A DNA stretch of 64,000 nucleotides from Trypanosoma brucei. Its lineage: Eukaryota. The DNA lies in assembly GCA_000002445.1 (NCBI GenBank), contig CH464491.1:4800001-4864000 (forward strand). The letters run 5' to 3'. Every line of letters starts with the position of its first letter. Within the stretch, counting starts at the first letter, position 1. This document shows, piece by piece, positions 36,001-39,000 of this stretch. Made by a program: the position numbers.

Positions 36001-39000
36001 TTGTCTTTGTTCCGGTACCGCCTGCCGCCCATTTTGACGGATTCTGGTCGTTGTACAGGGGTTTGGGGTTTTCGCCTCCCCCTTGCTTTTCTAGCACAAG
36101 GCACATTGCCACATACGCTAGCGGGTTGTGGCTTTGGATTTTGCCTTCGCTGTTACAGGCCGTGACTGTTGCGGCGCCGTTGTCGTTCCCGCTATTTGTT
36201 GCGAATTTGTCTCGGGCTTTTGTTTCGCCGTAAATGGCTTCAGCTAGTTTGTCGGCTATTGCTTGTTGGTTGCCGCTGTCCATGTTGTTATGCGCGGTTT
36301 GCAATTGGTTTCTTAGTTCCATCGTCGTGTTCAGTATGGCGTTGACCTTGGCTGCCGCTAGTCGGCGGGCGTGTCCTTGCAACTTGTTGGCCTTGCTGGT
36401 CTTGACTCTGCGGGCTGCGGGTGTATCGCCTTCAAGCATGTGCCGCGCAATTGCCCACCTTTCACAGCTGTCTTTCCCATGTGGGAACACCGTTTTGGCA
36501 TGGTTGTCTTTGTCTTCCCATGTGAGCTTGTCTTTTCCTTCTTTTAGAAACAGCTTCTGCCATGCAGGGTCGCTTAGGCTCATATTAAGAGCCGCTAGTT
36601 CTGTCAGCTCTTCTTCAGCAGTCGCCTGCTGGCCGTCAGGTGCTGAGCCTTTTTCCTGTAGCTGAATCAGCTTATACACCTTCGCAAATACATCCGCATT
36701 GGCGCCTTCTGGTATTTCAACCATCTTAGGGAAGCTCGTGGCGACCACAACTACCGCGCCTAGAGCAGCTTTAACAGTATTTTTCCAAGTCACCATATTG
36801 GGCGTTGTTGTTGCTTCTGATACCTTTTCCAAAATATTGGATATTCACCTGATATAGTTGACGCTGCTATTTTGTACATGGCGTGAATCTGTTTGGTGGT
36901 TTTTCAATCCACAAGCTTTGGGGTCTTGCCGCCGGAGTCAGACTTAGCAATATTTTAAAAACTTTTTAGTTGTGAACAAAACCCTTTCCATAAACCCATC
37001 ACCACAATTTTTTATATTTAAAATCCAACTTCTTTCTACTTATTGAAAGAGTTTGAATTTTACCAAACTCTTTCAAACTAAACTTCCTTCCTTTTAAATA
37101 TCCATACCAAGTAAGATTTTTCACAATCAATTTAGCTTTTTCTTCCCATTTAATTTGCTGGTCAGAAAAATAAATAAACAACACTTCTCCAAACTTTCTT
37201 CTATCGATAATAGAGAGGAATCTCTCCTCATAATCCAACCTAACAATTCCCCTTCTCAAAACAAATCTTTGTCAAACAGCTTCTTTTTGAGGTGCACTCC
37301 ATATTAGCAATAAATTGTAAATACTCTTATCTGACTGCCATTCCTTACCTCCTTTCAATAACTCTCCAAATGCATATTCAAATTTCTTAAATTCCATACT
37401 CTTGCTCTTGAGCCACTGCCGCTAAGATAGGGTTTTCCACTAGGAGATGATTTCAGAAAGTGAGGTAACTTTTTATCCTCTTCTTTTTTGCATACAACAT
37501 TAAAAAAACAATAACGTCTCTCCACGTGCTCTTTGTGAAGATCCTCTTCACTGATATTATCTTTATTATCAGGGTATTTTGTATGAAATATTCCACTGTA
37601 TTTTCATACTTATTTCCATCACTAACTATAACATCAGATCCATCCAAATGAATTGCAGTATCCTCATCACTTGAATTCTGTCCTTATAAAAATTCCATAA
37701 CCCATCTAGGCCTAACATAGCTCTACAAACTTCCCATCGCGATTGTAATAATTTCAATGTTACTTAGTTTGGGACTCAATATGAGTCTACATCATCCTTG
37801 GGTTGCATCAGTTTGAACCACAACCACAAATACTCTTGGTTTCTTCGTAACGTTCTGTCTTATATTTGTTACGTCATTAATTTCAACATCTTTCAAAGAT
37901 ATTTCGCTTAAGTACAATAAATGTAATATCAATGGTAATAGTAAAATTCTGAAGACACCACAATTTATCCCCTAATCTGCCGTTAAAATTTGAGAGTTGA
38001 AAAAAACTGGAAATTATAAGAAAAGAAGTTAGTTTTGTTACCAAGGTCTTATGTAAAAAATCGGTTTGTAGATATAGGTGATGCCTTATACTTATAATAT
38101 ATCTTTTTAAGCGTGCATTTATGTGTTTGTAACATATCTTTTTGAGAATGCGTCAAATAGTTTCTGTATAGGAGTTAACTTTTGAAAAAAAAAACAACTG
38201 ATTTACACTACATGAATTCATTTATTCCTTGCACTTTAATCTGAATCACAGTAATGTTTTCAACCGATTGATTCAAATATACTAAAAATAATAAGAGTTC
38301 GTGTGGCATCTACCAAATTTTCAAATTGTAATATAACTCCCATCAACGTAGATCTATAAATTAATGCTATTATTTATTCCACCTGAATCTCTGCAATAGT
38401 ATCTATACATTTAGGTATAAAATACGGAGTATTGTCGACTACTCCTCCTCCTCTTGATGTATTTTTACTCCTTCCATATTCTTTTGTTTCTTCTGAGGAT
38501 AACATAGAGAATACATTTGTCTTAAACGCTGGACTATGTTACCACTAATTAATTCCTTCATCACTTTCTTGTGAATGATTATTCCTATATTCATGTTAGT
38601 GTTTAAAGTTTCGCATTTCTCATTTCATTTTCTGCAATTCTTTCACCAATAATATACATCGTGTTACCACACTGACGCACTCCAATTGAACACCTGACAA
38701 TGGTGTAAGTGCTTCAATTTTGGCTATCCAATTAGTAGCGACCGCCACTCTTATTATAATATTAGTATATGCATACGTTTTTTATTATCATTATTATCAT
38801 CTTCTTTGCAGTTACAAGCTATTCCGCGATGTTGGTAGCCAGCAACGCTAAAGCAAGCCGCCTCTCCAGGCGTCATCCTTGTCTCGCTCAACAGACAAAA
38901 GGCGATCCGCTCATCAACAAGGGTTTTGTGGAGTGCTAATCTCTTTCTTTGAGATAGCCCGGCGCAGTTCCACTGCATCCCGCGCAACGACGGGCCGGGA

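What the first reader, a model, noticed from the sequence alone, without database searches (positions are those of the whole stretch)
36832..37960. Recurrent module: ESAG3-like pseudogene ending 60-170 bp upstream of a VSG start codon
Three paralogous copies (36999-37960, 46640-47560, 62422-63510), plus a 3' fragment at 28964-29265, lie on the VSG strand immediately 5' of a VSG. The gaps to the VSG ATG are 58 bp (62364/62422) and 167 bp (36832/36999). The VSG 5'UTR and splice-acceptor context would therefore lie inside ESAG3-like sequence. The copy at 62422 is nearly intact, with two long ORF segments. The unit 70-bp repeat–ESAG3-like pseudogene–VSG appears to be the duplicating cassette here. 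The ESAG3 family call rests on size, signal peptide and genomic context, not on a sequence match.
Basis: partly seen in the sequence, partly recalled or inferred. Interest (0 to 1): 0.5.

Follow-up and report, generated by a model that had tools for sequence, protein, structure and literature searches.

The report
ESAG3 pseudogenes upstream of silent VSGs
Four decayed copies of the trypanosome gene ESAG3 (recently reported to encode a VSG O-glucosyltransferase) sit between a 70-bp repeat and a silent VSG coat-protein gene; this is a real but already documented feature of Trypanosoma brucei subtelomeres.

Summary
The copies are real and the ESAG3 call is now backed by a sequence match. ESAG3 protein (P0001, 368 aa) hits exactly four places in the window, all on the minus strand: C 62425-63528 (all 368 codons, no indels, 60% identity, 3 nonsense codons), A 37005-37896, B 46521-47526 and fragment F 28949-29257. 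Each lies downstream of a 70-bp repeat. A, C and F lie upstream of a VSG. B is cut off from its VSG by an ingi retrotransposon.

Three details are wrong or unsupported:
- 62364 and 36832 are TTG codons, not ATGs. The first ATGs are 62232 and 36796, so the spacers are 189 and 202 nt, not 58 and 167.
- Homology stops at the ESAG3 stop codon. The spacers and VSG 5' ends are unalignable.
- Duplication of a whole 70-bp/ESAG3/VSG unit is therefore not shown.

The copies diverged mostly under purifying selection (pS 0.53-0.64, pN 0.27-0.33). Each carries its own disabling mutations. A and B share a 100-nt exact patch, which points to gene conversion.

The same layout occurs in a T. b. gambiense chromosome and in one short assembled read contig.

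ESAG3 pseudogenes in VSG arrays, and downstream of 70-bp repeats in expression sites BES7 and BES15, are published. Verdict: ordinary and already known.

The parts
62422..63528 (-). ESAG3 pseudogene, copy C. It has 368 codons in one frame with no indels against ESAG3. There are nonsense codons at 10 (TAA), 93 (TAA) and 183 (TGA). The stop codon is at 62422-62424.
   Evidence: tblastn with P0001 covers aa 1-368 at 59.8% identity, E=3e-150. The alignment retains H54, D110, D113, W242, E244, Q245 and H297. Stops are listed.
36999..37962 (-). ESAG3 pseudogene, copy A. It spans three reading frames, has an 87-bp deletion (aa 134-162) and 4 nonsense codons.
   Evidence: tblastn covers aa 25-352 at 58-72% identity. 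Codon map. The deletion shows in the alignment.
46521..47604 (-). ESAG3 pseudogene, copy B. It is frameshifted, has 7 nonsense codons, and its 3' quarter is strongly decayed.
   Evidence: tblastn covers aa 33-266 at 74-84% identity and aa 281-367 at 31%. Codon map. The upper bound 47604 is estimated from the codon map, which reaches codon 1.
28949..29257 (-). ESAG3 pseudogene fragment F (aa 243-345 only). It is truncated at its 5' end against unrelated G+C-rich sequence.
   Evidence: tblastn 56% identity, E=2e-30.
62233..62421 (-). Unique 189-nt spacer between the stop of copy C and the VSG ATG. It contains a pyrimidine tract and AG dinucleotides 10-35 nt before the ATG.
   Evidence: Sequence. 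No homology to the other spacers.
36797..36998 (-). Unique 202-nt spacer between the terminal stop of copy A and the VSG ATG.
   Evidence: No homology to the other spacers.
60928..62232 (-). B-type VSG downstream of copy C. The first ATG is at 62232.
   Evidence: Pfam VSG_B, E=1.2e-39. ATG position.
35379..36796 (-). B-type VSG downstream of copy A. The first ATG is at 36796. It is split over two overlapping ORFs in different frames (35681-36832 and 35379-35855).
   Evidence: Pfam VSG_B, E=1.2e-53. ORFs. ATG.
26948..28498 (-). B-type VSG pseudogene downstream of fragment F. The ATG is at 28498. It is split over two ORFs.
   Evidence: Pfam VSG_B and Trypan_glycop_C. ATG.
38729..38801 (-). 70-bp repeat upstream of copy A (weak match).
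   Evidence: nhmmer with a profile built from five window repeats, E=2.5e-6.
47997..48091 (-). 70-bp repeat upstream of copy B.
   Evidence: nhmmer E=4e-20. It is one of the five repeats the profile was built from. Repeat family D4.
30605..30698 (-). 70-bp repeat upstream of fragment F.
   Evidence: nhmmer E=6.5e-18. It is one of the five repeats the profile was built from.
41799..46242 (+). ingi-type non-LTR retrotransposon separating copy B from the next VSG fragment. Its 5' limit was not determined.
   Evidence: Pfam RVT_1, RNase_H and C2H2 zinc fingers. Its 3' end is 99% identical to 16083-16327.
37601..37830 (-). Near-identical patch between copies A and B (B: about 47252-47480). It includes a 100-nt exact run at 37601-37700 and is a probable gene-conversion tract.
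   Evidence: In codons 87-120, third codon positions are 34/34 identical, against 64/103 in codons 163-270.

Best explanation
These are non-functional relics of ESAG3-family genes. ESAG3 is the expression-site gene recently reported to encode a GT-A O-glucosyltransferase that modifies VSG. The relics occupy the 'co-transposed' slot of a subset of silent array VSG cassettes, in the order 70-bp repeat, ESAG3 pseudogene with its own roughly 100-260 nt upstream region, a unique spacer of about 165-390 nt, then the VSG.

Shown:
- The family identity.
- The disruption of every copy.
- The conserved order and strand.
- The restriction of homology to the ESAG3 unit.
- A purifying-selection signature in the divergence between copies.
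- Patchy near-identity between A and B.

Inferred:
- The ancestors were working genes for most of their history. They were then inactivated separately, because the nonsense codons differ between lineages.
- The copies now persist passively in the arrays and are occasionally patched by short gene conversion.
- When such a VSG is copied into an expression site from a break in the 70-bp repeats, the pseudogene travels with it. That would explain the published 'ESAG3 pseudogene 3' of the 70-bp repeat' in BES7 and BES15.

The pseudogenes have no demonstrated role in VSG expression. The VSG's own splice signals most likely lie in the unique spacer.
For: - Family: E=1.6e-61 to the ESAG3 cluster. tblastn E=3e-150 over 368 codons without indels. 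The published catalytic residues (bioRxiv 10.64898/2026.01.27.701950) are kept in copy C.
- Pseudogene state: 3, 4, 7, 1 and 2 nonsense codons in C, A, B, F and the gambiense copy G, plus frameshifts in A, B and G.
- Layout: 70-bp repeats sit upstream and VSGs downstream. The same layout occurs in L001 (70-bp repeats 4465-4645, ESAG3 pseudogene 5501-6552, VSG starting at 6797 with a Pfam VSG C-terminal domain) and in L002.
- Extent of homology: ESAG3 bodies score z=11-216. Spacers and VSG 5' ends score z<=2.6, and only A-C comes near significance (6 of 200 shuffles reach it).
- Selection: pS 0.53-0.64 against pN 0.27-0.33, Fisher p from 1.6e-9 to 4.9e-23, for all distant pairs.
- Mosaicism: a 100-nt exact run, with third codon positions 34/34 identical, between A and B. 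In codons 61-133, A, B and G agree at 83-90% of third positions, against 41-62% in codons 163-270.
- Literature: ESAG3 pseudogenes 3' of 70-bp repeats in BES7 and BES15 (PMC2567434). [quoted passage not shown] ESAG3 'is also in VSG arrays' (PMC3607257).
Against: - No expression data were available, so 'non-functional' rests on nonsense codons and frameshifts alone.
- Copy C is suspiciously well preserved: no indels and all catalytic residues kept. Its inactivation is therefore recent, or in principle a strain-specific or assembly feature.
- Only 4 of about 12 minus-strand cassettes in the window carry a copy.
- Co-transposition into an expression site is inferred from published maps, not observed here.
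- The Nei-Gojobori estimates ignore transition bias, and dS is near saturation.
Confidence: 0.8

Rival explanations
1. The whole unit of 70-bp repeat, ESAG3 pseudogene and VSG is the cassette that has been duplicating here, and the VSG 5'UTR and splice acceptor are embedded in ESAG3-like sequence.
For: - The order and strand are the same in all six modules examined.
- Spacer lengths are broadly similar, at 163-233 nt in four of six. That would fit an ancient common origin.
- For pairs with dS>=0.9, loss of alignability in neutral spacer sequence is expected (power <=0.12 at K>=0.8). An ancient whole-unit origin is therefore not excluded.
Against: - Homology ends at the ESAG3 stop in every pair.
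- The closest pair, A and B (dS about 0.5), should show spacer homology in about 80% of simulations, yet scores 16 against a null of 17.
- A is followed by a B-type VSG. The VSG fragment beyond the ingi below B is A-type.
- The 58-nt gap came from reading a TTG as the start codon.
Confidence: 0.12
2. The pseudogenes are kept because they work as non-coding homology blocks. In this view a roughly 1-kb dispersed repeat on the 5' side of the VSG guides recombination between cassettes, or between cassettes and the ESAG3 copies of expression sites.
For: - There is evidence of sequence exchange between copies: the 100-nt exact patch in A and B, and the mosaic third-position identity among A, B and G.
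- Hertz-Fowler et al. note that recombination breakpoints in expression sites coincide with ESAG3 loci (PMC2567434).
- ESAG3 is the one ESAG that is not monophyletic by location (PMC3605285).
Against: - Outside the patch the copies are only 50-80% identical at the DNA level. T. brucei homologous recombination is impeded by base mismatches (PMC1904282).
- Two thirds of the cassettes in the window lack a copy.
- The exchange seen is inside the pseudogene and does not extend to the VSG.
Confidence: 0.06
3. Copy C, or its orthologues in other strains, is a functional divergent ESAG3 paralogue. On this view the three stops would be sequencing errors or strain-specific lesions.
For: There are no indels over 1104 nt, all catalytic residues are kept, and pN is far below pS. 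The preprint mentions about 50 intact ESAG3-related genes, some of them subtelomeric.
Against: Three independent in-frame nonsense codons (TAA, TAA, TGA) lie at codons 10, 93 and 183. No identical protein is on record. The site is a silent array, not an expression site.
Confidence: 0.02

Closest known systems
ESAG3 pseudogenes lying 3' of the 70-bp repeats in Lister 427 expression sites BES7 (VSG 427-3) and BES15 (Hertz-Fowler et al. 2008, PMC2567434)
   Same: An ESAG3 pseudogene sits between a 70-bp repeat and the VSG, on the same strand.
   Different: Those are telomeric, transcribable expression sites with long 70-bp arrays. Here the cassettes are silent, internal to an array, and have one or two 70-bp units. 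Sequence identity to those copies could not be tested, because no T. brucei DNA collection was available.
Expression-site ESAG3, reported as a GT-A retaining protein O-glucosyltransferase of VSG (bioRxiv 10.64898/2026.01.27.701950)
   Same: Copy C is 60% identical over all 368 residues without indels. It keeps the DXXD motif (D110, D113), W242, E244, Q245, H297 and H54.
   Different: All four window copies are disrupted. They lie downstream, not upstream, of the 70-bp repeat. Copy C has W345L and G216N. No activity or expression can be claimed.
Chromosome-internal GRESAG3 / ESAG3-like genes (for example Tb927 proteins P0005, P0006, P0010)
   Same: They belong to the same superfamily (Fam53) and have the same length class.
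   Different: They are only 25-32% identical to the window copies in all long alignments. The window copies belong to the ESAG3 sensu stricto expansion.
The co-transposed region (CTR) of VSG cassettes
   Same: It is the stretch between the 70-bp repeat and the VSG that moves with the VSG during duplicative transposition. The pseudogenes sit within it.
   Different: CTR content varies between cassettes. Here a third of cassettes carry ESAG3 relics and one carries a GT67 glycosyltransferase relic.

Membership tests
ESAG3 sensu stricto (Fam53, T. brucei expansion) | Significant full-length sequence similarity to expression-site ESAG3. | tested here: met
   phmmer E=1.6e-61 to the cluster named ESAG3. 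tblastn E=3e-150 over aa 1-368 for C. A, B and F are also significant.
ESAG3 sensu stricto (Fam53, T. brucei expansion) | Closer to expression-site ESAG3 than to core GRESAG3. | tested here: met
   56-84% identity to P0001, apart from B's decayed 3' end at 31%. Identity to P0005, P0006 and P0010 is 25-32% in all long alignments. No formal phylogeny was built.
ESAG3 sensu stricto (Fam53, T. brucei expansion) | GT-A catalytic residues as defined in the 2026 preprint: DXXD D110/D113, glycine loop, W242, E244/Q245, H297. | tested here: met
   In copy C all are retained at codon level except G216N, and the GGG run is kept, shifted by one position. This was not assessed residue by residue for A, B and F, but the DGSD motif is visible in A and B.
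ESAG3 sensu stricto (Fam53, T. brucei expansion) | Intact open reading frame (a functional gene). | tested here: not met
   There are 3, 4, 7 and 1 nonsense codons in C, A, B and F. A and B have frameshifts, A has a deletion and F is truncated. They are pseudogenes of the family, not functional members.
ESAG3 sensu stricto (Fam53, T. brucei expansion) | [quoted passage not shown] | not testable with these tools
   The window holds about a dozen tandem VSG cassettes with single 70-bp repeats. That looks like a silent array, but chromosomal position and transcription cannot be read from the sequence.
GT-A glycosyltransferase fold | Rossmann-like GT-A fold. | not tested
   No structure was predicted. 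Pfam has no model that hits and PDB sequences give no hit. The fold assignment is taken from the preprint.
VSG cassette (70-bp repeat, co-transposed region, VSG) | A 70-bp repeat upstream and a VSG downstream on the same strand. | tested here: met
   The nhmmer repeat profile and Pfam VSG domains support this for A and F. For B it holds with an ingi in between. For C the repeat is only an 18-nt partial match at the window edge.

The most novel reading that the evidence does not exclude
The slot between the 70-bp repeat and the VSG may be a preferred home for glycosyltransferase genes. In this window it holds four ESAG3-type relics and one GT67 hexosyltransferase relic, and the ESAG3 copies evolved under purifying selection for most of their history. 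If some array cassettes in this or other strains still carry intact copies, gene conversion from the 70-bp repeat would deliver a VSG together with its own linked VSG-modifying enzyme into the expression site. That would couple a switch of antigen to a switch of O-glycosylation capacity.
Probability: 0.06. Interest if true: 0.65.

Novelty: already known. Interest (0 to 1): 0.18.

Why it matters
As it stands it matters little.

It gains some relevance from the 2026 report that ESAG3 is the VSG O-glucosyltransferase. The array copies record a long period in which ESAG3-type genes next to VSGs were under selection. They could be used to date and trace the expansion of that enzyme family, and to ask whether any silent cassette still carries a working copy.

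Tried and rejected
- Pfam has no family for these sequences. Neither the ORFs nor the full reconstructed protein hit anything, even at E<=10.
- The word-indexed protein search found nothing for the 181-aa ORF, and only the query itself for ESAG3. The exhaustive search did find the relatives. The first null was therefore a limit of the index, not evidence against ESAG3.
Only the 181-aa ORF was searched and no structure was made.
- A PDB sequence search gave no ESAG3 or related structure.
- Exact look-ups of three window proteins (a VSG, ESAG1 and the ESAG3 ORF) found no record. The strain of origin is not identified.
- I first read the nonsense codons at positions 59 and 96 in A and B as shared, and so as proof of duplication after inactivation. 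Codon 59 is TGA in A and TAG in B, which are different mutations. The shared TAA at codon 96 lies inside the near-identical patch. The claim was dropped.
- The 5' end of the ingi, and the nature of the G+C-rich sequence that truncates fragment F, could not be settled by self-comparison.
- The Berriman 2005 genome paper is not held in the library.
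Full report
**Context.** The window is a Trypanosoma brucei-type subtelomeric VSG array.
- Pfam finds VSG_B, Trypan_glycop (A-type) and VSG C-terminal domains in about a dozen ORFs. Most lie on the minus strand between 17 kb and 62 kb.
- It also finds an ESAG1 gene on the plus strand (13472-14476) and an ingi-type retrotransposon with reverse transcriptase, RNase H and C2H2 fingers (41799-45973).
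- A profile built from five 70-bp repeats found in the window detects 13 such repeats, all in minus orientation. They are spaced so that one precedes almost every VSG.

**The observation.** blastn of each copy's region against the window, a repeat search and a MAFFT alignment confirm three paralogous segments and one 3' fragment. tblastn with an ESAG3 protein (P0001, 368 aa) finds exactly four matches in the 64 kb, all on the minus strand:
- C, 63528-62425: aa 1-368, a single alignment, 59.8% identity, E=3e-150.
- A, 37896-37005: aa 25-352 in three frames, 58-72% identity, with aa 134-162 deleted.
- B, 47526-46521: aa 33-266 at 74-84% identity and aa 281-367 at 31%.
- F, 29257-28949: aa 243-345 at 56% identity.

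**The family.** Pfam has no model for these sequences, and the word-indexed protein search returned nothing.
- The exhaustive HMMER search with the 181-aa ORF of copy C found 18 relatives. The best is a 368-aa protein at E=1.6e-61 and 57% identity, aligned to its residues 191-368.
- The cluster of that protein consists of T. brucei 'expression site-associated gene 3 (ESAG3)' proteins. The weaker hits are ESAG3-like or GRESAG3 proteins of T. brucei, T. cruzi, T. grayi, T. vivax and T. theileri.
- The window copies are far closer to expression-site ESAG3 than to chromosome-internal GRESAG3. Identity is 56-84% (apart from B's decayed 3' end) against 25-32% in all long alignments.

A 2026 preprint reports that ESAG3 is a GT-A fold, Mn-dependent, retaining O-glucosyltransferase acting on VSG. 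Its key residues are D110, D113, G215-216, W242, E244/Q245 and H297, with interface residues H54 and W345 (bioRxiv 10.64898/2026.01.27.701950). Copy C aligns to ESAG3 without a single indel. It keeps H54, D110, D113, W242, E244, Q245 and H297, and differs at G216N and W345L.

**Pseudogene state.** The nonsense codons are as follows.

| Copy | Nonsense codons | Other lesions |
|---|---|---|
| C | 10, 93, 183 | none |
| A | 59, 82, 96, 263 | two frame changes, 87-bp deletion |
| B | 59, 96, 127, 194, 222, 240, 305 | frame changes |
| F | 340 | 5' truncation |

- The stops are mostly lineage-specific.
- Codon 59 is hit in both A (TGA) and B (TAG), but by different substitutions.
- The shared TAA at codon 96 lies in a patch that A and B share almost exactly (see below).

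**What is wrong in the finding.**
- Positions 62364 and 36832 are not ATGs. They are TTG codons at the upstream end of the open frames.
- The first in-frame ATGs are 62232 (MHIPLTYLASIFLGILQPGQA...) and 36796 (MVTWKNTVKAALGAVVVVATS...). Each is followed by a hydrophobic signal-like stretch and, about 20 residues later, by the start of the Pfam VSG_B match.
- The spacers are therefore 189 nt for C and 202 nt for A, measured from each copy's terminal stop. For A this is about 163 nt if counted from the end of detectable ESAG3 homology. For F the spacer is about 390-450 nt, depending on where the fragment is taken to end.
- Copy B is followed by about 210 bp of unique sequence and a short signal-peptide-like remnant. 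Then comes the A-rich 3' end of an ingi at 46242, which is 99% identical to a second ingi/RIME end at 16083-16327. The next VSG fragment lies about 5 kb further on and is A-type.

**Does the homology reach the VSGs?** No. Local alignment scores compared with shuffles are:

| Region | Result |
|---|---|
| ESAG3 bodies | z = 11 to 216 |
| Spacers | z = -1.0 to 2.6; only A-C is marginal (6 of 200 shuffles reach it) |
| First 400 nt of the VSGs | z <= 1.6 |
| Upstream of the ESAG3 start | weak: A-B z = 4.1; B-C z = 8.8 |

- The B-C upstream match is about 100 nt long and lies 90-190 nt above the ATG.
- The conserved unit is therefore the ESAG3 gene with a short upstream region, and it ends at the ESAG3 stop codon.
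- The same holds between the two external copies. L002 and L001 are 76.5% identical up to the stop codon and not beyond it.

This negative result has limited power.
- Simulated neutral divergence of a 160-190 nt spacer stays detectable in about 80% of trials at K=0.5. It is detectable in 12% or fewer at K>=0.8.
- Only the A-B pair (dS about 0.5) is informative. It shows no spacer homology: score 16 against a null of 17.
- For the older pairs (dS 0.9-1.5), an ancient common origin of the whole cassette is neither supported nor excluded.

**History of the copies.**
- Nei-Gojobori counts on codons anchored to ESAG3 give pS 0.53-0.64 against pN 0.27-0.33 for all distant pairs. These are A, B and C against each other and against the T. 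b. gambiense copy. Fisher p ranges from 1.6e-9 to 4.9e-23 and dN/dS from 0.23 to 0.39.
- Most of the divergence therefore accumulated while the proteins were under purifying selection. The present lesions are late.
- A and B are closer (pS 0.36, pN 0.24).

Identity along A and B is strongly uneven:
- A 100-nt exact run at 37601-37700, inside about 230 nt at roughly 94% identity.
- About 77% identity over the next 270 nt.
- About 62% after that.
- Background level by the stop codon.

In codons 87-120 all 34 third positions are identical, against 64 of 103 in codons 163-270. The patch therefore reflects recency, not protein constraint. The simplest reading is a short gene-conversion tract.

Codons 61-133 of A, B and the gambiense copy also agree at 83-90% of third positions, against 41-62% further downstream. 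The copies are mosaics. This fits published remarks:
- ESAG3 does not cluster by position in expression sites, and recombination breakpoints coincide with ESAG3 loci (PMC2567434).
- ESAG3 is the one ESAG that is not monophyletic by location (PMC3605285).

**Elsewhere.**
- The T. b. gambiense DAL972 chromosome record FN554968.1 (locus L001) has the same layout. Two 70-bp repeats lie at 4465-4645. An ESAG3 pseudogene lies at 5501-6552 (61% identity to ESAG3, one frameshift, two stops). A VSG pseudogene starts at 6797, and its product ends in a Pfam VSG C-terminal domain (E=1e-7). The next 70-bp repeat is at 8554.
- A 980-bp contig assembled from run ERR034315 (L002) shows the 3' end of an ESAG3 pseudogene. 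Then come 170 nt of spacer and an ATG followed by a VSG-like N-terminus (Pfam does not confirm it). That is cut by the same kind of ingi/RIME end.
- The arrangement is thus recurrent across genomes.

**What is already known.**
- Hertz-Fowler et al. list an 'ESAG3 pseudogene 3' of 70-bp repeat' in BES7 and ESAG3 pseudogenes in BES15 of Lister 427 (PMC2567434).
- Tiengwe et al. excluded ESAG3 as a boundary marker because it 'is also in VSG arrays' (PMC3607257).
- Another paper notes that pseudogenic ESAG copies are prevalent in subtelomeric VSG arrays (PMC4766357).
- The finding is therefore a correct rediscovery of documented anatomy.

**Mechanism.**
- The best-supported account is passive. These are relics of once-functional ESAG3-type genes that lie in the co-transposed region of some array cassettes. 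They decay independently, are occasionally patched by gene conversion, and are carried into an expression site when their VSG is copied from the 70-bp repeat.
- A role as recombination homology is possible but weak. Outside the patch the copies are only 50-80% identical, T. brucei homologous recombination is impeded by mismatches (PMC1904282), and two thirds of the cassettes lack a copy.
- The idea that the VSG splice acceptor lies inside ESAG3 sequence lost its basis once the ATGs were corrected. In C, a pyrimidine tract (CCTTTAATTTTTCTTTC) and AG dinucleotides lie within 35 nt of the ATG. Without RNA data this remains inference.

**Verdict.** The feature is real. The family call is confirmed and several details are corrected. 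It is ordinary, and interest is low.

Noticed in passing
window 33001-33997 (-), ORF 32950-33909: A UDP-Gal/UDP-GlcNAc-dependent glycosyltransferase (hexosyltransferase) relative lies between the 70-bp repeat at 34907-34999 and the VSG at 31058-32371. It is 67% identical to a T. brucei 927 protein (E=7e-121), and its N-terminus is frameshifted. This is the same slot the ESAG3 pseudogenes occupy. Five of about 12 minus-strand cassettes therefore carry a glycosyltransferase-family relic there. It is the only copy in the window.
   Followed up: partly
window 37601-37700 and 47252-47351: A 100-nt exact identity run joins ESAG3 pseudogenes A and B, which are otherwise about 50-80% identical. It is a probable recent short gene-conversion tract between array pseudogenes 9.6 kb apart.
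   Followed up: yes
window 46243-46310 and L002 696-935: In two unrelated modules, a VSG 5' coding start downstream of an ESAG3 pseudogene is cut by the A-rich 3' end of an ingi/RIME element in antisense orientation. The element ends are 95% identical. Whether this is coincidence or an insertion preference was not examined.
   Followed up: no
window 29258-29700: G+C-rich sequence abuts the 5' truncation point of fragment F. It includes a motif starting CCCTGGCGCCACGTTGAGG. It shares only a 28-nt match with 15847-15874 and 39208-39235. It may be a retroelement end but is not identified.
   Followed up: partly
window 13472-14476 (+) and 5763-6665 (+): An apparently intact ESAG1 ORF (Pfam E=4e-113) and a B-type VSG fragment lie on the plus strand. 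This implies a strand switch near 15-16 kb, where a RIME/ingi 3' end (16083-16327) also lies.
   Followed up: no
window 50710-52224 (-): A 504-aa ATG-initiated ORF looks like an A-type VSG by eye (signal peptide, cysteine-rich C-terminal part) but gets no Pfam hit even at E<=1. Its C-terminus runs on past the usual GPI-signal end.
   Followed up: no
window 53042-53122 and 59817-59897: An 81-nt direct repeat (70% identity) lies in the region between 70-bp repeat and VSG of two cassettes that lack ESAG3 relics. This suggests other shared elements in the co-transposed region (family D10).
   Followed up: no
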